Source: an uncultured Gammaproteobacteria bacterium (GTDB lineage Bacteria; Patescibacteriota; Patescibacteriia; SG8-24). Taken from it: 64,000 nucleotides of DNA. The stretch is taken from contig CAZVED010000005.1 in assembly GCA_964626205.1 (NCBI GenBank), positions 31,603 to 95,602 on the forward strand, in the 5' to 3' direction. Within the stretch, counting starts at the first letter, position 1. The number at the start of each line of letters is the position of its first letter. Below are positions 53,340 through 64,000 of this stretch, piece by piece. Made by a program: the position numbers and the translations under genes. The notes beneath the pieces are model-generated. The model saw only the letters and a program-made list of their open reading frames with translations, made no database searches and was not told the DNA's origin.

Positions 53340-55472
53340 TTACTCCACATGCGCCGACTCCACGGCGACACGAACCTGCTCGGCAAGGAGCGGGTACCCG
53401 GCGAGCGTGGGGTCTTCCGCAAGGATGCGCTGAGCGGCTTCTTTGGCAGTGCGGACGAGGCTCATGTCCGCAATACTCGCGAATCGGAGCTCCGGGAACC
53501 CGGACTGAGCGTCACCCAGCAGGTCGCCGGGACCGCGCAGCTCTAGGTCTTTTTCCGCGAGCGTGAACCCGTCCTTGTGCTGCACTACCGCCTTGAGCCG
53601 CGCCTTTTCGCCGTCCGTATCCTTCGTGGGGAACAGGAAGCAATACGACGCATGCGCTCCCCTACCGATACGCCCACGGAACTGATGGAGCTGCGCGAGA
53701 CCGAACCGCTCCGCACCCTCGATGCACATCACGCTGGCATTCGGCACGTCCACGCCGACTTCCACGACAGAGGTCGCCACAAGCACCTGCGTCTCGCCCG
53801 CAACGAACCGTCGCATGACCTCTTCTTTCTCCGCAGAGGAGAGCTTCCCGTGAAGCATGCCGACCGTATACCCCTTCAACTCCCCCTTAGCGAGTTTCTC
53901 AAAAAGTTCGGTCACGGATGCTGCCTCCACCATGTCGGAACGGTCGATGAGCGGACAGACTACGAACGCCTGCCGTCCTTGGTCGAGCTGACCGCGCACG
54001 AACGCGAATGCCCTCTTGCGGCCGACCGGCATGACCAGTTTCGTTTCGATATCCTTGCGCGCTGCCGGTTTCTCCTTGAGGAGCGAGAGGTCGAGGTCGC
54101 CGTATGCCGTGAGCGCCAACGAGCGCGGAATCGGCGTTGCAGTCATAGAGAGCAAGTGCGGCTCCGTCCCAACATCACCGCTCTTGGCACGGAGGAGCTT
54201 GCGCGTCCGTACGCCGAACCGATGCTGTTCGTCCACCACGGCGAAAGCAAGGTCGTGGAAACTGAGCGCGTCATAGACGAGCGCATGCGTGCCGATGATG
54301 ATATCCACGCGTCCTTTGGCGATTTCCTCGCCGAGCGCAGCAACCTCCTTTTTCCCTTTCGCTTCGATCTCTTTGCCACCCCGCACCGAACGACGATGCG
54401 CATTGGTCCAGAGCACGATGGTCACATTCTTCTCGCTGGCGAACGTGCGTGCGAACGTGCCGAAGTGCTGCTGCGCGAGAATCTCCGTCGGTGCCATGAC
54501 CGCAACCTGACGACCTGCCGCAACGACGTTCCGTGCGGCAATCATCGCGACCGCGGTCTTGCCAGTACCTACGTCCCCGTCCAAAAGCCGCGCCATGGGA
54601 ATATTCCTGCCCATGTCCTGCATCGCCTCCCACGCTGCGACACGCTGATCCTTGGTGAGGGGGAACGGCAACGACGCCACGAACGCTTTCACGATGTCCT
54701 CGGCAAACGGCACTGGCGCCGCAGTCGCCTTCTCGCGATATGCGCGCATCCTACCGACGGCGATTTGCAGCCGCAGAAGCTCGTCAAACGCCAGGCGGTG
54801 ACGAGCGCGGTCCGCACTGCCCTCAGCTGTCGGAAAATGCGCCTCGCGGAGAGCGGCGGCGAGAGGAAGGAGCCCATACTCCGTGAGTAGCGGCTCCGGG
54901 AGCGGGTCCGGTAAAAGGTCGATGACCGACGCGCACTTTGCCACCGATACCCGCACCGCGCGCTGCGTCAGCCCGATGGTGAGCGGATACACTGGCATGA
55001 CCTCGCGTACGGAGGTGTCGTTTGCCGCGCTCGCAGCAGGCGTCACGACATCCAGAGAACCGACGCGTTCGAACTGCGGATTGATGAGCTTCTTCCCGAA
55101 CTTGGACAGCTTCACCTTTCCCGCGAACCGATATGCATTTCCCACGACGAGCGTCTTCACGAGGTATGGTTGGTTGAACCAGATCGCGCCAATCTCGTCC
55201 GTGCCATCGGAGAGTACAGCCTCGGTCATGGTCATGCGCTTGCGGAAGCTGCGCTTGTTCTGGAGCGCTGTCACCTGCAACGTGAGTGCGACGTTCGTTT
55301 CTGGTATCGCCTCCACCAACCCGCCGCTACCGTACGTTTCGTAGCGAAACGGAAGGTGCAGAAGCAAGTCCCGCACGGTCACAAGGCCGATACCCGAAAA
55401 AACCGGGCATAGCCGTTTGACGATGCCAGGAACATCTTCGAGCCGCGTATCCGGCGTGATCTGCCGTTTCAT
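53340..55472 (-). CDS. recG: ATP-dependent DNA helicase RecG
   Basis: Wedge domain, helicase motifs DVGTGKTAVAM, DEQHRFG, SMTATPIPRS, QFRGRIGRG. Confidence 0.93.
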   Translation of the reverse strand: MKRQITPDTRLEDVPGIVKRLCPVFSGIGLVTVRDLLLHLPFRYETYGSGGLVEAIPETNVALTLQVTALQNKRSFRKRMTMTEAVLSDGTDEIGAIWFNQPYLVKTLVVGNAYRFAGKVKLSKFGKKLINPQFERVGSLDVVTPAASAANDTSVREVMPVYPLTIGLTQRAVRVSVAKCASVIDLLPDPLPEPLLTEYGLLPLAAALREAHFPTAEGSADRARHRLAFDELLRLQIAVGRMRAYREKATAAPVPFAEDIVKAFVASLPFPLTKDQRVAAWEAMQDMGRNIPMARLLDGDVGTGKTAVAMIAARNVVAAGRQVAVMAPTEILAQQHFGTFARTFASEKNVTIVLWTNAHRRSVRGGKEIEAKGKKEVAALGEEIAKGRVDIIIGTHALVYDALSFHDLAFAVVDEQHRFGVRTRKLLRAKSGDVGTEPHLLSMTATPIPRSLALTAYGDLDLSLLKEKPAARKDIETKLVMPVGRKRAFAFVRGQLDQGRQAFVVCPLIDRSDMVEAASVTELFEKLAKGELKGYTVGMLHGKLSSAEKEEVMRRFVAGETQVLVATSVVEVGVDVPNASVMCIEGAERFGLAQLHQFRGRIGRGAHASYCFLFPTKDTDGEKARLKAVVQHKDGFTLAEKDLELRGPGDLLGDAQSGFPELRFASIADMSLVRTAKEAAQRILAEDPTLAGYPLLAEQVRVAVESAHVE

Positions 55473-55517: not shown

Positions 55518-55594
55518 TGGTGCACCCGGCAGGAGTCGAACCTGCGACCTTCAGCTCCGCAAGCTGACGCTCTATCCAGCTGAGCTACGAGTGC
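55518..55594 (-). tRNA. tRNA-Arg (anticodon GCG as read)
   Basis: The minus strand gcactcgtagctcagctggatagagcgtcagcttgcggagctgaaggtcgcaggttcgactcctgccgggtgcacca folds as a canonical cloverleaf. Anticodon loop tt-GCG-ga; encoded CCA. Confidence 0.8.
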
Positions 55595-55603
55595 GTATGC
55601 GGT

Positions 55604-56113
55604 TTACAGTTTGAGGACGCGACCAATGGCGTCGAGCAGGGGCTCTTCGTCTTTGGTGAGATCTTCGACGACGAACGCGGCCAAGACTTCGCGGACTTCG
55701 TTGGGGTTTTGATCGCCCAAGCCGATGATGACACGCGGCTTCCACGGCTCCTTGAAGTCGAGGTACAGCTGCTTCACGACCGGTGGTTCGTAGACGAACC
55801 AGAAGTGGCTGATTTCCTGGTAGCCGTAGAACGCACCTCCGACCTGGATGCCCCGGTCATCGATGGTTACGACGGATTCCGTGACAGCCTGGATCGACGA
55901 GAGGTAGATCACGAGGCCGAACATGATGATAATCAGCGCAAAGAGGAAGTTACCAGAAGCCAGCGCATAAAGCAAGAGTCCAAGGCCCACGGCCCCCATG
56001 GCGAAATACCACCGCCCGCCCCGGTCATACCGGTCGGCCTCGGAGTACTCCCAGCTCACAATCATGTCGCGTTCGTCTTCCATAGGTGATTCCTCCCCGC
56101 TACTATAGCGCAT
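55604..56113 (-). CDS. hypothetical membrane protein (169 aa)
   Basis: Two adjacent TM helices (WYFAMGAVGLGLLLYALASGNFLFALIIIMFGLVIYL). No family recognised. Confidence 0.4.
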   Translation of the reverse strand: MRYSSGEESPMEDERDMIVSWEYSEADRYDRGGRWYFAMGAVGLGLLLYALASGNFLFALIIIMFGLVIYLSSIQAVTESVVTIDDRGIQVGGAFYGYQEISHFWFVYEPPVVKQLYLDFKEPWKPRVIIGLGDQNPNEVREVLAAFVVEDLTKDEEPLLDAIGRVLKL

Positions 56114-56356
56114 TTAAGGCCAGGGGGCCAATAGGGGTATTCACAAACCCGGGGGTTTCCTATACTGTAACGGGGTTCGGAAATGAACCGACCGGATGGC
56201 CATAGGGAGCCGTCGGAGTATGAGAAGGCCTTTCAGACGGGATGCGATTCGGGATGCTGGCGTGGACCGCAGCCGTGAGGCCTACTCCCTGTAGGCCGGA
56301 ACGGGGCGGGCCGCGTCAGTGCCCGAAGCGCGCCCGGCTGTAAGGCCGAACCGTAA

Positions 56357-56445
56357 GGAGGGCTGCGCCGAATGGTAAGGCACCAGTTTGCTAAACTGTG
56401 ACGCCGCAAGGTGTCTTCTGGGTTCGATCCCCAGGCCCTCCGCCA
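56357..56445 (+). tRNA. tRNA-Ser (anticodon GCU), class II with long variable arm
   Basis: ggagggc acceptor, anticodon loop tt-GCT-aa, variable arm tgacgccgcaaggtgtcttc, T-arm ctgggttcgatccccag, 3-prime gccctcc-g-cca. The spurious antisense ORF translates to the classic GIEPRR artefact. Confidence 0.8.
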
Positions 56446-56528
56446 TGAATCGCTCACCCCGCAAGGGGTGGGCGCTTTCATATGAGGTCATGGCCCGAAG
56501 GGGTCGGGAATGGTATTTTAATGGACAT

Positions 56529-56616
56529 GGAGGGGTGGCCGAGCGGTTGAAGGCACCGGTCTTGAAAACCGGCAGGGCGCAAGTCCTCGTGAGTTCGAAT
56601 CTCACCCCCTCCGCCA
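56529..56616 (+). tRNA. tRNA-Ser (anticodon UGA), class II
   Basis: ggaggggtggccgagcggttgaaggcaccggtcttgaaaaccggcagggcgcaagtcctcgtgagttcgaatctcaccccctccgcca. The antisense ORF gives the GVRFELT artefact. Confidence 0.88.
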
Positions 56617-58217: not shown

Positions 58218-58829
58218 ATGTCCTTCAAGAGTTGGTACTACACGCATCTTTCCTGGCGGATCTGGCGACTGCGCTACCGCGTCCGTGGCGTCCGCGACAA
58301 GCTCGACCTCGCCCGACGCATGGGTCTGCGAAGTGCTCTCCGGGGATGGCGGGCGCACCGAGCTGCCTACACCCATGCTCGCGCGCAGTACGGCGACCGC
58401 GCAAAACGCGGCAGGCTCGAAGCCTTCGCGGAGACCGGAACCGAAGGGTTCTGCTGGATGGTCCTCGAGGACGGCAAGACCGGCTACGAAAGCCTCATCG
58501 ACCTCGCGAACGGCGACCATCTCATCATCTTCTTCCATGACGGTACCGTCGCCTTCGATGGTATCATCGACCACGACCGCGAAGCCGGCTACCAGTCCTA
58601 TCCCCTGAACCCTGCATACGGTCAACCCTGCGCGTTCGGCTGTTGGATCCACTGGACCCAACGCGGCTGGACCCCAGAGGACTGGGCCGCGTTCTTCTTC
58701 CACAGTATCTTCACCCGACGCAAAGACAAACCTCCCATCCACCCGCTCCTCGACTGGGGTACTGATCGCGTCCCCTATCGCGCGGTCGTCGTGAAATCCG
58801 ACCGCCCCGAGACGGATGAGGACGACTAA
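58218..58829 (+). CDS. hypothetical protein (203 aa)
   Basis: RBS aaaggaggag before ATG at 58218. Trp/His-rich. No family recognised. The track ORF from 57903 is an extension. Confidence 0.4.
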   Translation: MSFKSWYYTHLSWRIWRLRYRVRGVRDKLDLARRMGLRSALRGWRAHRAAYTHARAQYGDRAKRGRLEAFAETGTEGFCWMVLEDGKTGYESLIDLANGDHLIIFFHDGTVAFDGIIDHDREAGYQSYPLNPAYGQPCAFGCWIHWTQRGWTPEDWAAFFFHSIFTRRKDKPPIHPLLDWGTDRVPYRAVVVKSDRPETDEDD

Positions 58830-58835
58830 CAACGT

Positions 58836-58862
58836 AAAAACCGGCATCTGCCGGTCTTTTTT
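58836..58862. terminator. bidirectional terminator (hypothetical gene + / comF -)
   Basis: aaaaaccggcatctgccggtctttttt. Confidence 0.75.
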
Positions 58863-59674
58863 CATCCCCGCAACACCGTCACGGCCGTCACACGAAGCGC
58901 TCCGGCATCCCGGAGCGCTTTTGCGCATGCCGCGAGCGTCGACCCTGTCGTCATCACATCGTCCACGATGACGCACGACTCCGGCGCCGCGCGCAGGGAC
59001 GTGACCGCGCCACGGACGTTCTCCGACCGCAACACGCTCTCCCCCATCTCTACCTGCGTCTTGCTCGAGTACGCACGCCGGAGCAATGTGCGGTCCACAG
59101 CATGGCCGGTCGCGGCAGCAAGCGTCTCCGCGAACACGTCCGCCTGATTGAACCCACGCATCCGAAGCCTCAATGGATGCAACGGTGACGGCACAATGAC
59201 CGCCTCTGTGTCTCCCAACGTGCGAAGCTCCTCACCACGCCCGGCAAGGAACGCGGCGAACAGGTCCGCAAGCGCCGTCCCAGCCTCCTCGATGCCCTCA
59301 TACTTGTAGGCCTGTAGCAGTTCGCGTAGCAGCGGGTCGTTGTAAGGAGCCATGCAAAGGACACCATCTAGGCCTTCCACGTGAACAAGAAATGGTGTCG
59401 CGTTGCGTTCCAGGCCAGGCCCCTCCGGGGAGGCTAAAGTCGGAGCCGCCTCCCCGGAGGGGCCTGGCCTGGGGCGTAAGGCACCGTCAAGAGATAACGA
59501 AAAGCCTCCGATGGTGGAGGCTTTTTTTATCTCGAGACACGCAGCGCAGAGCAGAGATCCTTCCATGCGGCACCCCAGGCAAAAATGCGGAAATAGCACC
59601 GGACCGGCGGATGCAACCGCCGTCCGTACGATCCTTATTGCCGTGGTTGCCACTCCGCGGAATCCGCCATCCAT
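58862..59674 (-). CDS. comF: ComF family phosphoribosyltransferase-domain protein carrying an in-frame palindromic insertion
   Basis: N-terminal LFPHFCLGCRMEGSLLCAACLEI (ComF zinc finger), LDGVLCMAPYNDPLLRELLQAYKYEG, PRT motif VIVDDVMTTGSTL. The start codon is uncertain and overlaps the upstream gene. Confidence 0.8.
   Translation of the reverse strand: MDGGFRGVATTAIRIVRTAVASAGPVLFPHFCLGCRMEGSLLCAACLEIKKASTIGGFSLSLDGALRPRPGPSGEAAPTLASPEGPGLERNATPFLVHVEGLDGVLCMAPYNDPLLRELLQAYKYEGIEEAGTALADLFAAFLAGRGEELRTLGDTEAVIVPSPLHPLRLRMRGFNQADVFAETLAAATGHAVDRTLLRRAYSSKTQVEMGESVLRSENVRGAVTSLRAAPESCVIVDDVMTTGSTLAACAKALRDAGALRVTAVTVLRG
59410..59472. repeat. perfect inverted repeat (24-bp arms, 15-nt spacer) embedded in frame inside comF
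   Basis: ccaggccaggcccctccggggagg-ctaaagtcggagccg-cctccccggaggggcctggcctgg. Translated as ALRPRPGPSGEAAPTLASPEGPGLER in ComF. Confidence 0.8.
59498..59528. other. terminator-like hairpin (A-run, GCCTCC-gatggt-GGAGGC, T7) located inside the comF reading frame
   Basis: aaaagcctccgatggtggaggcttttttt on the plus strand. The minus strand also has an A7-hairpin-TTTTCGTT. It encodes KKASTIGGFS of ComF. Confidence 0.6.
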
Positions 59675-60267
59675 TCGCCGTTCGTCTTGATGAGTTCGAG
59701 GATGATGTCCTGATAATACACCTCGGCGGCCGTGGTGCCGGACGCATCCTGGCGGCGCTGGGTGCTGACGCGCACCGTAGCAGTCCCCGCATCTTCGTCA
59801 AATGTCACGATGGTCGGAGCAAGCGCGCGGGTCGTGACACCGTAATGGACTGTAGTGTCGCCGGAGGCGGCCCGTGCGTCCGCCACATACTGGTCGGCCC
59901 ACGCCTGCATGGACGGGGTCATGACCGTCCGTAAATCCGTGATGTTCACGAAGTCCGTCTGGTTGGAGAAGCTGCCGAACCGTTCGGTGAATGCCGCCGC
60001 GAAACGCAGGATGGCTGATGTGTCGTCCGGCGGCGCCGTCGGCGCCGTTTCGGTCGGGGCTGGCTGCACCGGAGCCGGAGTCGCTCCGCGATTAGGATCG
60101 TTGGCTTCCGGAAGCCCTGTCGTCGACTGCCCGTTCCCCTGCGCCGTGACATCCACGACCGGAACCGTCGGAGCAGGACGCTGCATCAGGAAGAACAGGG
60201 CGATAGCCAACAAGAGGAGGATGAGCGCGATGGCGATACCAAGAAGGACTTTCTGTCGTCGTGTCAT
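59635..60267 (-). CDS. membrane-anchored protein downstream of VirB4 (possible VirB8/TcpC-like periplasmic domain)
   Basis: N-terminal TM helix (LLGIAIALILLLLAIALFFL), Pro/Thr/Ala-rich linker, C-terminal domain of about 120 aa. Position in the T4SS-like operon. Confidence 0.4.
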   Translation of the reverse strand: MTRRQKVLLGIAIALILLLLAIALFFLMQRPAPTVPVVDVTAQGNGQSTTGLPEANDPNRGATPAPVQPAPTETAPTAPPDDTSAILRFAAAFTERFGSFSNQTDFVNITDLRTVMTPSMQAWADQYVADARAASGDTTVHYGVTTRALAPTIVTFDEDAGTATVRVSTQRRQDASGTTAAEVYYQDIILELIKTNGEWMADSAEWQPRQ

Positions 60268-60276
60268 AGGCGTCGG

Positions 60277-62226
60277 TTATGCGGTAGGTGGTGTTCCGGC
60301 TGGGGCAGCTCCTTTAGCAGCGGCGTTCGCAGCATCCTGCCGTGCGATCTCGGCTTCGTACTCCTTCTTTGCCTCCGCGATCTCGATGAGCTGTTGCGGG
60401 TTCGTGGTGACGATCTGGTCTTCGGTGTAGCTCGCCACGACCTTGATGGCCGCGTGCTTATTGCCAGCGAAGAAGATACCTTCGCCGACACCACCCTCGA
60501 GGAGAAGGAACTTCTCGCCCTCCGTGAGAAGGAACGTCTTGGCGACGTTGTCGATGGCCGCCGGCGACTGCTTGAGCAGCATCTGCATGGCGGAGTTCGT
60601 CACGATGGCCTGGCCGTAGGGCGAACGCAGGAAGTCGTTCACGTCCTGGGTGATCGTCGTGACACCGAGGAAGTACTTACGGCAGCGCTTCACGAGCGCG
60701 AAGATGAACTTCGCCGAGTCCTCGTGCTGCATGAGCCACCATGCCTCGTCGATGACGAGAATGCGCTTCTTCTTCTCCGAACGGACGACGTTCCAGATGT
60801 AGTTGACGACCGCGTAGATGGCGAGTGGGCGAAGTTCGTCTTCCAAGTCACGGACGCAGAACGTGACGAGCAGGTTATTCATCTGCACGGTCGTCGGCGA
60901 GTTGAAGAGACCGGCGAACGTACCTTCCGTGAACTTCTTCAGCTTGATGACGATGTCCTTGGTGCCTTCCATGCCATCGAGCACTTCCACGAAGTCCTGC
61001 ATGACCGGCGCTTCGACCTGCGAAAGATCGGCATCGGCAGTGATGTCCTTCTTGGCGTAGGTTTCAAGCAGCGCACGGTCGAGGACGGAGTCTTCCTGCG
61101 GCGTGACGGTGCCGAGCATGATGCGGAGCAAACCCTTGGTCGTGATGACCGCCGAGCGGATGATGTCTTCGGTGGATACCTCCTCGCCCACCGCGCGCGG
61201 CAGGTCGAACGGGTTGATCTTAGCGTCCGACGCGAGCGAGAGGTTCACGTACGTGCCGCCGACGGCATCCGAGAGGTGCTTGTATTCCTGTTCCGGGTCG
61301 ATGACGATAACGTCGGTCCCCAGCATGAGCGACCGCAAAATCTCGAGCTTCACAGTGTACGACTTACCCGCACCGGAGGTCGCGAACACGATGTAGTTCG
61401 CGTTCTGCATGGAGAAGCGGTCGAAGAGGATGAGGCTGTTGTTGTGGCGGTTGATGCCGAACAAGATGCCGTTCTCGGACGTAAGGTCCGCGGAGATGAA
61501 CGGGAACGACGACGCAATCGGGCTCGAGTTCATGTTGAACGTCGTCATGAGCTCGTCGTTACCGATCGGTAGCGTGGAATTGAAGCCCTGCTCCGCCTGA
61601 TAGAATACGCGCTTCGTGTAGATGAGCTTTGACCCGAAGACGGACTCCACTTCCTCGCTGAACTTATCGAGGTCTTCCTTGGTCTTTGCGTACATCGTGA
61701 CGTACAACGCAAACTGGAAAAAGTGCTCCGTCCCCTGGGAGAGCGTGTCACGCAGCCATTCGATGTCCTGGAGCGCCTGTTCACGGATGGGGTCGCGTGG
61801 CTTTCCGGACTCCGAATCCGAAACGATCTGCGCTTCGAGCGTACCGACCTTCTTCTGCAACTGCTTCAGGATGACATTAGCCTTGACCGGGTAGAAGAAC
61901 ATCGCCACGTCGATGGTCTTGTTCATGTTGATGACCGGCGTGAACCAGCCGAGCGACAGGTGGCGCGGATAGGACACGACGAACACCGTCCGAACGAAGC
62001 TCTCACCGAGCTGCAAGAACGTCGGCTGGATCTGCATCCCTGCGGGCGAGATGAGATCCTTGATGGAGACGACGCCTTTGCGATAGATGCGCTCCTCTTC
62101 GAGCAACGTCTTCTGTTCCGCGAGCTTTGTCTGCTCTTCTGCCTGCTTCTTCCCCTTCCCCGAAAGGTCCTTCGGGTCTTTGGGGACGCTGACCTGTGTG
62201 CCGAGTTGTTGCGGTGTGAACGCCAT
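60277..62226 (-). CDS. virB4: VirB4/TraC/CagE-family T4SS ATPase, C-terminal 650-aa portion (linker + ATPase)
   Basis: LISPAGMQIQP...VRTVFVVSYPRHLSLGWF, Walker A FATSGAGKSYT, Walker B RILVIDEAWWLM. Start MAFTPQQ at 62226; the 703-aa track ORF is over-extended. Confidence 0.88.
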   Translation of the reverse strand: MAFTPQQLGTQVSVPKDPKDLSGKGKKQAEEQTKLAEQKTLLEEERIYRKGVVSIKDLISPAGMQIQPTFLQLGESFVRTVFVVSYPRHLSLGWFTPVINMNKTIDVAMFFYPVKANVILKQLQKKVGTLEAQIVSDSESGKPRDPIREQALQDIEWLRDTLSQGTEHFFQFALYVTMYAKTKEDLDKFSEEVESVFGSKLIYTKRVFYQAEQGFNSTLPIGNDELMTTFNMNSSPIASSFPFISADLTSENGILFGINRHNNSLILFDRFSMQNANYIVFATSGAGKSYTVKLEILRSLMLGTDVIVIDPEQEYKHLSDAVGGTYVNLSLASDAKINPFDLPRAVGEEVSTEDIIRSAVITTKGLLRIMLGTVTPQEDSVLDRALLETYAKKDITADADLSQVEAPVMQDFVEVLDGMEGTKDIVIKLKKFTEGTFAGLFNSPTTVQMNNLLVTFCVRDLEDELRPLAIYAVVNYIWNVVRSEKKKRILVIDEAWWLMQHEDSAKFIFALVKRCRKYFLGVTTITQDVNDFLRSPYGQAIVTNSAMQMLLKQSPAAIDNVAKTFLLTEGEKFLLLEGGVGEGIFFAGNKHAAIKVVASYTEDQIVTTNPQQLIEIAEAKKEYEAEIARQDAANAAAKGAAPAGTPPTA

Positions 62227-62227
62227 A

Positions 62228-62923
62228 CTAGATGCTGTTCTGGTTATCCGACACGCGCAAGTCGCCGACGTCGCGCATCTTCTGCGAGTCGAGGAGTTCC
62301 GGGTTGTACGCGCGATAGTAGAGCTCGATGAGGCTCTGCGTGTCGAGCATGACAGACTTGAGTCCCATGGACTGAAGATTGCCAGCAATGCCGTTCACAC
62401 GCGACAGCAGCTGTTCCTTGCGGTCACGGAAACGCTTCTCCGCGAGCTTCACGATAGCGGCCGGCTGGAACGCCTCGCTCAGACGCGCCCAGAAACCCTT
62501 GGACTTGTCCGACAGCGGATTATACGGCACGACGACGAAGAACTGCTTCTGCATGATCTGTCCGATATCAACGAGTTCCGAGACGAACCCACGATAATCC
62601 GCGATCTGCAGCTTGAGCAGTTCGTTCTTCTGGTTCTTCTGCGCCTCAGCAAGCCGCTCCATATACGCCTCGATGTTGAGACGGCGTGACTGAATGACGA
62701 TCTGCAACGGGAACTCGAGCGAGTTCATGAAGCTGATGTACTGCTGGATAATGGCATTCTGCTCGTCTTCGGACTTGAGCGCAAAATTGATGGATGCCAC
62801 GAGCAAAACCGCGCGAAGCGTGCCGTCTTTCATGACGACGACGTCTTCGCGGACTTCCGCGATGTCGAGATACCGTTGTGTCGCAGGTCCCGGTTTCGGT
62901 CCCGCAAGTTTCTTCGACTGCAT
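62228..62923 (-). CDS. VirB4 N-terminal domain encoded as a separate 231-aa ORF (split gene or frameshift)
   Basis: DIAEVREDVVVMKDGTLRAVLLVASINFALKSEDEQNAIIQQYISFMNSLEFPLQIVIQS matches the N-terminus of Gram-positive VirB4 homologs (PrgJ/TraE type). Stop TAG, 1 nt, then the ATG of the ATPase ORF in the +1 frame. Confidence 0.7.
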   Translation of the reverse strand: MQSKKLAGPKPGPATQRYLDIAEVREDVVVMKDGTLRAVLLVASINFALKSEDEQNAIIQQYISFMNSLEFPLQIVIQSRRLNIEAYMERLAEAQKNQKNELLKLQIADYRGFVSELVDIGQIMQKQFFVVVPYNPLSDKSKGFWARLSEAFQPAAIVKLAEKRFRDRKEQLLSRVNGIAGNLQSMGLKSVMLDTQSLIELYYRAYNPELLDSQKMRDVGDLRVSDNQNSI

Positions 62924-62925
62924 GG

Positions 62926-63357
62926 CTATGCTTCAGGGTTATAGACGCCGCCCGTGTTGACGATCATCGTCAGCTCGGAGAGCTTGGAGGCTTCCACGCG
63001 CGCCTTGAGCTTTCGCGTGGGTGGGGGCGGAGGCGGGGGCTCATTGAGAATCGCCTTGAGCTCCGCGTCGGTAAGGTCCTTGTCCCAAACGCGGCGTGGC
63101 GGCTTCCTCCATGTCTGGATGAGGTTCAGCAGGAAAAAATGGAACGGCTGACCGTTGATCTTCGTGAACGCGAGAATACCGCCGAGCGCGAGCTCGATGA
63201 CGCCGACCGTGATAAACAGCGCGAAATCGAAAAGCTGAAACGCGATAAACATGAACATCGCCGTGACGAGCAGAATGACGAACTGCCGCGTCGTGATAGG
63301 ACCGATGATCTTATCTTCGACGTCGATGAATTGCGGAACAACGTATTTCTGCGCCAT
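62926..63357 (-). CDS. PrgI family (VirB3-like) small membrane protein
   Basis: MAQKYVVPQFIDVEDKIIGPITTRQFVILLV matches the PrgI-family N-terminal signature. Two TM helices, poly-Pro C-terminal part. Its stop is 2 nt before the VirB4 N-domain start. Confidence 0.7.
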   Translation of the reverse strand: MAQKYVVPQFIDVEDKIIGPITTRQFVILLVTAMFMFIAFQLFDFALFITVGVIELALGGILAFTKINGQPFHFFLLNLIQTWRKPPRRVWDKDLTDAELKAILNEPPPPPPPTRKLKARVEASKLSELTMIVNTGGVYNPEA

Positions 63358-63371
63358 ACATCAGTGTTTCC

Positions 63372-63410
63372 AGTATAGCACAGAAATAAGCTCAGCATGC
63401 TGAGCTTATT
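63372..63410 (-). promoter_or_regulatory. TATACT -10-like hexamer plus a perfect 26-bp palindrome AATAAGCTCAGCATGCTGAGCTTATT (operator-like) upstream of the T4SS-like operon
   Basis: The minus strand reads ...aataagctcagcatgctgagcttatt-tctgtgc-TATACT-ggaaacactg-ATG (PrgI-like gene). The palindrome spans 63385-63410. Confidence 0.5.
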
Positions 63411-63484
63411 GCCGTTCAAATCCACCCATCCCAGAAAGGCGGAAAATCTTATCCACAACCGTCCAGGAAACCACGGAGCGAGCT

Positions 63485-63578
63485 GTTTTTTGCGAGGCCT
63501 TTAGGCCGAAGCAATCCCGTGCGATTTCAAGACGGGATTGCTTCGGGGGTCGAGTACGACCCCACTCGCAATGACAAA
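63485..63578. repeat. Structured element E3 of the TGTCATTGCGAG family: a four-way junction closed by TTGCGAG/CTCGCAA and ending in CTCGCAATGACA
   Basis: ttgcgag-[gcctttaggc]-c-[gaagcaatcccgt gcgatttcaag acgggattgcttc]-g-[ggggtcg agta cgacccc]-a-ctcgcaatgaca. Confidence 0.6.
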
Positions 63579-63625
63579 GTCAGAACAGTCGCGCCTACCC
63601 TCCCCACGATGACACGATAGTGCAA

Positions 63626-63988
63626 TTACCCGAAACGCAAGTCCCTATTCAGTTCCATAATCGCGTCGAACTCTTCCTTGGTCAGCACAGGCTGATTGGC
63701 ATTCTGTAACTTCGCGATGACCTGCGGAAGCGGTTCGCCTTCGAGACTCGTGCGAAGCATGGAAAGATACGTCCTGTTGGCTTCCGATGCCTGCCATGCC
63801 TTGATGCCTTCGGTCTTTCGTTCGAACGATTCCTCGGCAAGAAGATCGATCTTGTCCTTGATCTTCAGCGTCGCTTCCTTTGGTGTCTTGGAAAGGCGGC
63901 GGAAATCGACGATGGACATGGACCGCAATGCATCTGTTGGACCGGTGAGTTTCGGTGCAGTGGTGACATCAGAGACTACCGGCTTCAC
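63626..63988 (-). CDS. hypothetical protein (120 aa; the 5-prime end may extend beyond the window)
   Basis: ORF on the strand of the downstream T4SS-like genes. No family recognised. Confidence 0.3.
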   Translation of the reverse strand: MKPVVSDVTTAPKLTGPTDALRSMSIVDFRRLSKTPKEATLKIKDKIDLLAEESFERKTEGIKAWQASEANRTYLSMLRTSLEGEPLPQVIAKLQNANQPVLTKEEFDAIMELNRDLRFG

Positions 63989-64000
63989 CGGAGCTGGTGG

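What the first reader, a model, noticed from the sequence alone, without database searches (positions are those of the whole stretch)
60277..62923. VirB4 ATPase split into a 231-aa N-domain ORF and a 650-aa ATPase ORF separated by TAG + 1 nt (+1 frame)
The upstream ORF ends ...DNQNSI-TAG and the next begins 1 nt later with MAFTPQQ in the +1 frame. Together they reconstitute a full-length Gram-positive-type VirB4 (N-domain with INFALKSEDEQ...FMNSLEFPLQIVIQ; linker; YPRHLSLGWF; Walker A/B). This is either a genuine split gene, a pseudogenising frameshift or stop, or an assembly error. Which one determines whether the T4SS-like apparatus is functional.
Basis: seen in the sequence. Interest (0 to 1): 0.55.

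Follow-up and report, generated by a model that had tools for sequence, protein, structure and literature searches.

The report
Natural two-gene VirB4 (TrsD plus ATPase)
The "split" secretion-system ATPase is the normal, conserved two-gene form found in ultra-small Patescibacteria; it is not a broken gene or an assembly error, and the arrangement is already described in the literature.

Summary
On the minus strand a 231-aa ORF (62923..62228) ends in TAG. One T follows, and then ATG starts a 649-aa VirB4-type ATPase ORF (62226..60277).

It is not a defect. In 78 of 78 related species with readable downstream DNA (80 loci fetched; Uhrbacteria and other Patescibacteria), the same two genes are separate. 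Spacers range from 1 to 182 nt, in all three relative frames and with all three stop codons. Thirteen species have the same stop+T+ATG junction. The closest independent metagenome assembly has the identical TAG-T-ATG. None of the 120 best homologues of either ORF is fused. Both ORFs are under purifying selection (dN/dS 0.14 and 0.07).

The small ORF is the TrsD/"TraC-like" protein, a free-standing homologue of the VirB4 N-terminus. It occupies the same position as trsD in trsC-trsD-trsE of staphylococcal plasmid pSK41. Quiñonero-Coronel et al. 2025 report TrsD as the most abundant T4SS component in Patescibacteria, usually next to virB4, and list it as essential in Southlakia epibionticum.

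The locus reads prgI (VirB3-like), trsD-like, virB4, virB8-like, comF-like. This is an ordinary member of a known system, so interest is low.

The parts
62926..63357 (-). prgI-like gene (VirB3-like small membrane protein, 143 aa). Its stop lies 2 nt before the ORF1 ATG.
   Evidence: Pfam PF12666 PrgI, E 4.6e-8, 33.9 bits against a cut-off of 27. The same gene precedes the TraC-like gene in relatives L081, L082, L084 and L085.
62227..62227 (-). 1-nt spacer (T) between the TAG of ORF1 and the ATG of ORF2.
   Evidence: Sequence. The identical TAG-T-ATG is present in the independent assembly L081. Stop+T+ATG occurs in 13 of 77 species junctions measured with an ATG start.
60277..62226 (-). virB4 gene (649 aa): short low-complexity N-terminus, second part of the VirB4 N-terminal region, and the P-loop ATPase domain.
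   Evidence: Pfam P-loop_TraG 90.5 bits, AAA_10, DUF87. NCBIfam conju_CD1110 331.9 bits against a cut-off of 325. PDB 4AG5 VirB4 C-terminal domain E 7e-47 over residues 249-607, and TrwK. 24% identity, E 1e-44, to pSK41 TrsE. dN/dS is 0.069.
59635..60267 (-). virB8-like gene (210 aa): N-terminal membrane helix, disordered Pro/Thr-rich linker, NTF2-like domain.
   Evidence: AlphaFold model with pLDDT 82.9. Foldseek PDB hits to TraE pKM101, CagV, TrwG/VirB8, Brucella and Agrobacterium VirB8 and PrgL, probability about 1.0 and E from 2e-3, with generic NTF2-fold proteins scoring similarly. A ~205-210-aa gene follows virB4 in relatives.

Best explanation
[quoted passage not shown] In this system the first ~200-residue sub-domain of VirB4 is encoded as its own protein, called TrsD or 'TraC-like'. 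Its gene sits between the VirB3-like gene prgI and the gene for the rest of VirB4.

The genes prgI, trsD-like, virB4 and virB8-like lie head to tail with gaps of 2, 1 and 9 nt, and no terminator-like site was found at the trsD-virB4 junction. I infer that they are co-transcribed. I also infer that virB4 is translated from its own ATG, probably by ribosomes that have just terminated on trsD (stop and start 1 nt apart).

The two polypeptides most likely assemble non-covalently into a complete VirB4. In that assembly the TrsD-like part would provide the membrane-proximal N-terminal module that docks the ATPase hexamer to PrgI/VirB3 and the VirB8-like protein.

Shown here: the split is conserved, selected and ancient, and a colinear fused relative exists. 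Inferred: co-transcription, translational coupling, physical assembly of the two proteins, and the docking role.
For: Conservation of the split:
- 80 species loci were fetched. In all 78 with downstream DNA the N-domain ORF stops and a separate ATPase ORF starts. The start is ATG with a conserved MAF/MAI-type N-terminus in almost all, and GTG in one.
- Spacers are 1-182 nt (median 5), in relative frames 0/1/2 at 21/26/30, with stop codons TAA 49, TAG 16, TGA 13. Thirteen have stop+T+ATG.
- The best 120 homologues of ORF1 are 226-251 aa, and the best 120 of ORF2 are 571-676 aa; none is fused.
- Of the 150 best 50%-identity cluster representatives of ORF1, only one is 600 aa or longer.

Not an error and not decaying:
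- The nearest independent assembly, L081 (84% and 94% aa identity), has the identical TAG-T-ATG junction and the same gene order.
- dN/dS between the window and L081 is 0.135 for ORF1 and 0.069 for ORF2.

The two ORFs add up to one VirB4:
- The fused 898-aa relative P0212 occurs on 5 contigs from 3 sequencing runs. It is colinear with ORF1 (residues 2-225), a Pro/Ala-rich linker, and ORF2 (residues 309-890, 51% identity).

Precedent and literature:
- pSK41 has trsC (135 aa), trsD (227 aa) and trsE (672 aa) in the same order and sizes. TrsE aligns to ORF2 from an equivalent N-terminal point.
- PMC12102498 states that TrsD shares remote homology with the VirB4 N-terminus and is the most abundant T4SS component in Patescibacteria: 2,272 homologues, 1,664 of them next to virB4. 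It lists TrsD as essential in Ca. Southlakia epibionticum. It also reports that ABY1 T4SS loci commonly include comF and recG. Both are present in this window.

Expression:
- SD-like motifs are not enriched upstream of ORFs in this window: 6 of 38 against a 15% background. The missing SD before virB4 is therefore not a sign of silence.
Confidence: 0.93

Rival explanations
1. A recent pseudogenising frameshift or stop mutation has broken a once single virB4 gene, so the T4SS is non-functional in this organism.
For: A stop followed 1 nt later by the continuation of the homology in another frame is what a frameshift would look like. A fused 898-aa relative exists.
Against: All 78 comparable species have the split, with many different spacer lengths and frames. 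No fused form appears among the 120 closest homologues of either ORF. ORF2 starts with a conserved ATG-MAF N-terminus, not mid-sequence. The dN/dS values of 0.135 and 0.069 show purifying selection on both parts. Both ORFs are full length relative to their homologues.
Confidence: 0.02
2. An assembly or sequencing error (a 1-nt indel or a miscalled stop) created an artificial split.
For: Metagenome-assembled genomes do contain indel errors, and no reads could be inspected.
Against: The independent JGI metagenome contig L081, from a different organism (84%/94% aa identity), has the very same TAG-T-ATG. Dozens of independent assemblies from NCBI, JGI, ENA and Logan give a 226-251-aa protein ending at the same place.
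Confidence: 0.01
3. Programmed recoding (+1 frameshift at AUC-UAG-U, or stop read-through in frame-0 relatives) produces a fused full-length VirB4 in addition to, or instead of, the two separate proteins.
For: A stop codon in a +1 context resembles prfB-type frameshift sites. Stop+T+ATG recurs in 13 species.
Against: AUC-UAG-U has no slippery codon: tRNA-Ile cannot re-pair on UCU (reasoning from the sequence). Relatives have spacers of 1-182 nt in all three frames, and many carry long hairpin-forming inserts. No single recoding rule could therefore be conserved. A conserved ATG and N-terminus argue for independent initiation.
Confidence: 0.03
4. The TrsD-like protein is homologous to the VirB4 N-terminus but works as an independent factor (for example a regulator or assembly chaperone) and not as a stoichiometric sub-domain of the ATPase.
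Against: The gene is strictly adjacent to virB4 in 78 of 78 species. A natural fusion with the same order exists. The gene is tightly packed with its neighbours, and sits in the same position in pSK41.
Confidence: 0.1

Closest known systems
TrsD-VirB4 pair of the Patescibacteria-clade T4SS (Quiñonero-Coronel et al. 2025, PMC12102498; Ca. Southlakia epibionticum ML1 system of Wang et al. 2023)
   Same: A free-standing TrsD homologue lies next to virB4 and is associated with a PrgI/VirB3 homologue. The locus is chromosomal. The ABY1-type context with comF and recG is present. Homologues are overwhelmingly from Patescibacteria MAGs.
   Different: Nothing essential differs. This locus also has a recognisable VirB8-like gene directly after virB4. 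The paper found VirB8 homologues only rarely, and nearly all of them in ABY1.
trsC-trsD-trsE of staphylococcal conjugative plasmids pSK41/pGO1 (MPF_FATA, pGO1 subclass)
   Same: The order and sizes match: VirB3-like (135 vs 143 aa), TrsD (227 vs 231 aa), VirB4-like ATPase (672 vs 649 aa). The ATPase proteins start at equivalent positions. Profile homology links ORF1 to TrsD.
   Different: Sequence similarity is remote (TrsE 24% identity; TrsD detectable only by profile). pSK41 is a conjugative plasmid with a relaxase and coupling protein, whereas this is a chromosomal system in a conserved core-gene neighbourhood. ORF1 scores below the NCBIfam TrsD/TraD cut-off.
Canonical single-chain VirB4 (TrwK of R388, VirB4 of A. 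tumefaciens, PrgJ of pCF10, CD1110 family)
   Same: ORF1 plus ORF2 together cover the N-terminal and C-terminal regions of VirB4 profiles (TIGR00929 positions 18-178 and 237-725). Walker A and B motifs are present. The solved structures 4AG5 and TrwK match.
   Different: The protein is encoded as two polypeptides. The break falls in a low-complexity linker inside the N-terminal region, not between the N-terminal domain and the ATPase domain.
Fused TraC-like+VirB4 protein P0212 (898 aa, uncultured relative; L086-L088)
   Same: It is colinear with ORF1 and ORF2 (40% and 51% identity) and is preceded by prgI.
   Different: It is a single ORF with an ~80-residue Pro/Ala-rich linker where this window has stop-T-ATG, and its downstream genes differ.

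Membership tests
VirB4 / TraC-type T4SS ATPase (ORF2) | P-loop NTPase domain of the TraG/VirB4 type scoring above curated cut-offs | tested here: met
   PF19044 90.5 bits (cut-off 25.8), PF12846, PF01935. NF045971 conju_CD1110 331.9 bits (cut-off 325).
VirB4 / TraC-type T4SS ATPase (ORF2) | Intact Walker A and Walker B motifs | tested here: met
   The sequence shows FATSGAGKSYT and RILVIDEAWW. These align to the equivalent motifs of TrsE and P0212.
VirB4 / TraC-type T4SS ATPase (ORF2) | Homology to a solved VirB4 C-terminal domain | tested here: met
   4AG5 E 7e-47 over residues 249-607; TrwK 7O41 E 1e-5.
VirB4 / TraC-type T4SS ATPase (ORF2) | Complete N-terminal region in the same polypeptide | tested here: not met
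   ORF2 covers only positions 171-730 of 752 (CD1110) or 237-725 of 792 (TIGR00929). The first ~170-230 profile positions are matched by ORF1.
TrsD/TraD family (NCBIfam NF041427) (ORF1) | Score at or above the curated cut-off of the family model | tested here: not met
   31.3 bits against a cut-off of 200, E 1.6e-7, profile positions 24-143 of 201. This makes it a homologue, not a member of the narrow staphylococcal/enterococcal subfamily.
TrsD/TraD family (NCBIfam NF041427) (ORF1) | ~200-230-aa protein encoded between the VirB3-like gene and the VirB4-like ATPase gene | tested here: met
   Window order is prgI, ORF1, virB4; pSK41 order is trsC, trsD, trsE.
Pfam PF26593 'TraC-like' (ORF1) | Match to the Pfam model | tested here: inconclusive
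   Precomputed annotation gives PF26593 for P0001 (identical to ORF1) and for all 120 best homologues. The local Pfam copy does not report this model even for the fused P0212, so I could not reproduce the score.
Patescibacteria-clade T4SS (PMC12102498) | virB4 with adjacent TrsD and PrgI/VirB3 homologues in a chromosomal context; in ABY1, comF and recG nearby | tested here: met
   (ComF-like PRTase 58862..59674, RecG 53340..55472). Conserved synteny with relatives.
Patescibacteria-clade T4SS (PMC12102498) | VirB4 falls inside the monophyletic Patescibacteria VirB4 clade | not tested
   No phylogeny was built. The closest 120 homologues that carry a name are Patescibacteria/Uhrbacteria MAGs, with a few evidently mislabelled bins.
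Patescibacteria-clade T4SS (PMC12102498) | No relaxase associated with the locus | not tested
   The rest of the window was not screened for relaxases or coupling proteins, and the upstream part of the locus lies beyond the window end.
VirB8 family (210-aa downstream protein) | Bitopic topology with an N-terminal transmembrane helix and a C-terminal NTF2-like domain, encoded in a T4SS locus | tested here: met
   The AF2 model (pLDDT 82.9) has helix 3-28, a disordered 37-61 and an alpha+beta NTF2-like domain. Top Foldseek hits include TraE, CagV, TrwG, VirB8 and PrgL. No sequence-profile hit except a weak SnoaL_4 match.

The most novel reading that the evidence does not exclude
Encoding the VirB4 N-terminal module separately may be functionally exploited and not neutral. 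The TrsD-like subunit could be made in a different amount from the ATPase, or be exchanged. The junction would then act as an evolutionary and regulatory control point. Two observations fit this: relatives repeatedly carry 80-180-nt hairpin-forming inserts exactly at this junction, and at least one lineage has re-fused the genes. This would make the docking of VirB4 to PrgI/VirB3 a regulated step in the epibiotic T4SS.
Probability: 0.1. Interest if true: 0.35.

Novelty: already known. Interest (0 to 1): 0.1.

Why it matters
Annotation pipelines and curators who see a "frameshifted VirB4" in Patescibacteria, or in pGO1/pSK41-type plasmids, should recognise the trsD-virB4 pair as the native state. 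Beyond that it adds only one more example to a system described across more than 2,000 genomes.

Tried and rejected
- **Exact-sequence contig look-ups.** Look-ups for ORF1 and ORF2 found nothing on record, so the source contig beyond the window end could not be fetched. I used relatives instead.
- **Sequence search of ORF1 against solved structures.** The ORF1 profile gave no meaningful hit in the PDB.
- **Local Pfam scan of ORF1.** It gave nothing, because the local copy does not report PF26593.
- **First junction script.** It mis-scored L006 and L077 as possibly fused, because tblastn alignments ran through the stop codon. Re-scoring from inside the hit showed both are split. In one search the negative spacers for L007 and L056 are artefacts of an upstream in-frame ATG; the conserved ATG-GCG-ATT and ATG-CCT-ATT starts lie 4 and 10 nt after the stop.
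- **ORF1 structure.** The AlphaFold model is low confidence (pLDDT 62), so the fold matches are only supporting evidence.
- **Promoter and terminator scan.** No promoter-like site was found anywhere in 58500-64000, and no terminator-like site at the junction.
- **Literature.** A search for TrsD+TrsE+VirB4 returned nothing. The main text of Guglielmini et al. 2014 does not mention TrsD by name, so the statement on TrsD-VirB4 homology is cited from PMC12102498.
- **Programmed +1 frameshifting.** Considered and rejected; see the rival explanations.
Full report
**1. The observation**

On the minus strand, a 231-aa ORF (62923..62228) ends ...DNQNSI-TAG. One T follows at 62227. ATG GCG TTC... (MAFTPQQ) then opens a 649-aa ORF ending at 60277, in the +1 frame relative to the first. 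The quoted motifs are present. A longer TTG-initiated reading of ORF2 (703 aa, overlapping ORF1) is listed mechanically. The conserved MAF/MAI start in relatives identifies the ATG at 62226 as the start.

**2. What the two ORFs are**

ORF2 is a VirB4-type ATPase.
- Pfam P-loop_TraG scores 90.5 bits, with AAA_10 and DUF87 also matching.
- NCBIfam conju_CD1110 scores 331.9 bits, above its cut-off of 325.
- The solved VirB4 C-terminal domain 4AG5 matches at E 7e-47 over residues 249-607, and TrwK of R388 also matches.

ORF1 has no hit in the local Pfam copy. It matches the N-terminal positions of several VirB4 models: VirB4_plasma 112-220 of 894, TIGR00929 18-178 of 792, and CD1110 5-89 of 752. 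It also matches the stand-alone TrsD/TraD family NF041427 at E 1.6e-7.

ORF2 picks up the same VirB4 models from position ~171-290 onward. Together the two ORFs tile a VirB4. The break lies inside the N-terminal region, because ORF2 residues ~50-248 are still N-terminal-region sequence.

**3. Is the split real and stable?**

Homologue lengths:
- ORF1 has 6445 homologues, and the best 120 are all 226-251 aa.
- The best 120 homologues of ORF2 are all 571-676 aa.
- In an exhaustive search of 50%-identity cluster representatives, only one of the best 150 matches to ORF1 is 600 aa or longer.

Junctions in other species:
- I fetched 80 loci, one per species, from Patescibacteria genomes and measured the junction.
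- In all 78 loci with downstream DNA the N-domain ORF terminates and a separate ATPase ORF begins. The start is ATG with a conserved MAF/MAI-type N-terminus in almost all, and GTG in one.
- Spacers range from 1 to 182 nt, with a median of 5.
- The relative frame is 0/1/2 in 21/26/30 loci.
- The stop codon is TAA in 49, TAG in 16 and TGA in 13.
- Thirteen species have the same stop+T+ATG as the window.

The closest independent assembly is JGI contig L081, at 84% (ORF1) and 94% (ORF2) amino-acid identity. It has the identical ...TAG T ATG GCG TTC... and the same gene order. This excludes an assembly artefact.

dN/dS between the window and L081 is 0.135 for ORF1 and 0.069 for ORF2. It is 0.21 for prgI and 0.31 for the downstream gene. 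Both halves are therefore under purifying selection.

**4. A fused relative shows what the two halves add up to**

One representative, P0212 (898 aa), is a single chain.
- Residues 2-225 match ORF1 at 40% identity.
- Residues ~226-308 are a Pro/Ala-rich low-complexity linker.
- Residues 309-890 match ORF2 residues 35-614 at 51% identity.

P0212 is found on five contigs from three sequencing runs, again directly after prgI, so it is probably real.

Other stand-alone ORF1 homologues carry long low-complexity C-terminal tails. The split therefore lies in a variable, disordered linker. That is the place where a protein can be cut or joined without harming either fold.

**5. Precedent and literature**

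Staphylococcal plasmid pSK41 encodes trsC (135 aa, VirB3-like position), trsD (227 aa) and trsE (672 aa, DUF87 ATPase) in the same order and sizes.
- TrsE aligns with ORF2 at 24% identity, E 1e-44, and both proteins start at an equivalent point.
- The ORF1 family profile aligns with pSK41 TrsD at hhalign probability 77%, E 2e-5.

Quiñonero-Coronel et al. 2025 (PMC12102498) surveyed 3,035 Patescibacteria genomes. They report the following.
- Most VirB4 proteins form a Patescibacteria clade nested within MPF_FATA.
- A TrsD homologue next to virB4 in Ca. Southlakia epibionticum ML1 is listed as essential.
- In class ABY1, T4SS loci commonly include comF and recG.

The window matches that description. 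A ComF-like phosphoribosyltransferase lies at 58862..59674 and RecG at 53340..55472. The finding is therefore a regular instance of a published arrangement.

**6. The locus**

The order on the minus strand is as follows.
- The C-terminus of a large conserved protein without Pfam domains. It runs off the window end at 64000 and is homologous to the 508-805-aa proteins that precede prgI in relatives.
- A 268-nt gap.
- prgI (63357..62926).
- A 2-nt spacer.
- The trsD-like gene.
- A 1-nt spacer.
- virB4.
- A 9-nt spacer.
- A 210-aa gene (60267..59635).
- The comF-like gene, overlapping the previous gene by 40 nt.

The same block occurs in L081, L082, L084 and L085.

The 210-aa protein has an N-terminal membrane helix, a disordered linker and an NTF2-like domain (pLDDT 82.9). 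Its best PDB matches include VirB8-family structures: TraE of pKM101, CagV, TrwG, Brucella and Agrobacterium VirB8, and PrgL. Generic NTF2-fold proteins score similarly. I read it as the VirB8-like component.

**7. How it most likely works**

No promoter-like site was found in 58500-64000, and no terminator-like site lies at the trsD-virB4 junction. The short gaps suggest one transcript.

SD-like motifs are not enriched upstream of ORFs in this window: 6 of 38, against a 15% background. The lack of an SD before virB4 is therefore normal for this genome. With stop and start 1 nt apart, termination-reinitiation coupling is the simplest reading (inference).

In species with 80-182-nt spacers, often forming long hairpins, the ATPase must be initiated independently. 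Coupling is therefore not obligatory across the family.

PMC12102498 summarises that VirB3 interacts with VirB4 and anchors it to the inner membrane. From my own knowledge of the R388 structure, that contact is with the VirB4 N-terminal domain. On that basis I infer that the TrsD-like protein supplies the module that docks the ATPase to PrgI and the VirB8-like protein. This has not been shown for any TrsD.

**8. Rival explanations**

- **Pseudogene.** Rejected by conservation of the split, selection on both parts and the conserved start codon.
- **Assembly error.** Rejected by the identical junction in independent assemblies.
- **Programmed +1 frameshift.** There is no slippery site, and junction geometry varies across relatives, so this is unlikely.
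- **Independent, non-stoichiometric role for the TrsD-like protein.** This cannot be excluded and is the main open point.

**9. Verdict**

The "genuine split" option is correct and the other two are refuted. The arrangement is already known, so interest is low.

Noticed in passing
window 59635-60267 (-): The 210-aa gene directly after virB4 has no sequence-family hit apart from a weak SnoaL_4 match. It nevertheless models confidently (pLDDT 82.9) as a membrane helix plus an NTF2-like domain. Its best PDB fold matches include VirB8-family proteins (TraE, CagV, TrwG, PrgL). The 2025 survey found VirB8 homologues only rarely in Patescibacteria, mostly in ABY1.
   Followed up: yes
L071:2217-2359, L072:5691-5835, L011:2382-2547, L039:5703-5784, L008:5682-5800, L073:870-976 and others: In about 16 of the 78 related species the trsD-virB4 spacer is 49-182 nt long. 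In 9 of those 16 it folds into a long hairpin (MFE z of -4.4 to -11.8 against mononucleotide shuffles). In L011 and L071 parts of the spacer recur elsewhere in the same locus, which suggests REP/MITE-like intergenic repeat elements landing at this junction.
   Followed up: partly
L086:6001-8697, L087:1431-4127, L088:1431-4127: A rare natural fusion (898 aa) joins the TraC-like domain and VirB4 through an ~80-residue Pro/Ala-rich linker. It was seen in three sequencing runs. It follows prgI but has different downstream genes (465-aa and 1428-aa proteins, then an SLT-like gene).
   Followed up: partly
window, whole (38 ORFs of 200 aa or more): Shine-Dalgarno-like motifs are no more frequent upstream of long ORFs (6 of 38) than at random positions (15%). 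This genome appears to make little use of canonical SD-led initiation. None of prgI, trsD-like, virB4, virB8-like or comF-like has one.
   Followed up: partly
window 59635-59674 and 59500-59525 (-): The comF-like ORF, read from its first ATG at 59674, overlaps the virB8-like gene by 40 nt. The same 40-nt overlap is called in L084. A perfect 10-bp GC-rich hairpin (AAAAGCCTCC-ACCATC-GGAGGCTTTT) lies inside the N-terminal part of the comF-like ORF. At 270 aa it is 20-28 aa longer than the ORFs called in relatives, so its true start is uncertain.
   Followed up: no
window 63626-64000 (-): An ORF running off the window end is the C-terminus of a large protein (508-805 aa in relatives, no Pfam domain) that always precedes prgI. 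One or two further large unannotated proteins lie upstream in relatives (L082, L084, L085). These are candidates for the missing VirB6-like or surface components.
   Followed up: partly
record titles (e.g. L002, L004, L010, L016): Many of the related genomes are deposited as 'uncultured Gammaproteobacteria bacterium' (binchicken and SRP co-assemblies), and some proteins as Eisenbacteria or Binatia. They carry the Patescibacteria-type locus, so these are probably placeholder or wrong taxonomic labels.
   Followed up: no
window 55518-56616: tRNA-Arg(GCG) lies on the minus strand, and tRNA-Ser(GCT) and tRNA-Ser(TGA) lie on the plus strand, between recG and the RibD_C-domain gene. No other Rfam family reached its gathering threshold in the window.
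   Followed up: no
tool note (vs 5, 25): The local Pfam-A copy does not report PF26593 'TraC-like', even on the fused protein. The precomputed annotations list it for every homologue, so ORF1 looks domain-less in a fresh hmmscan.
   Followed up: yes
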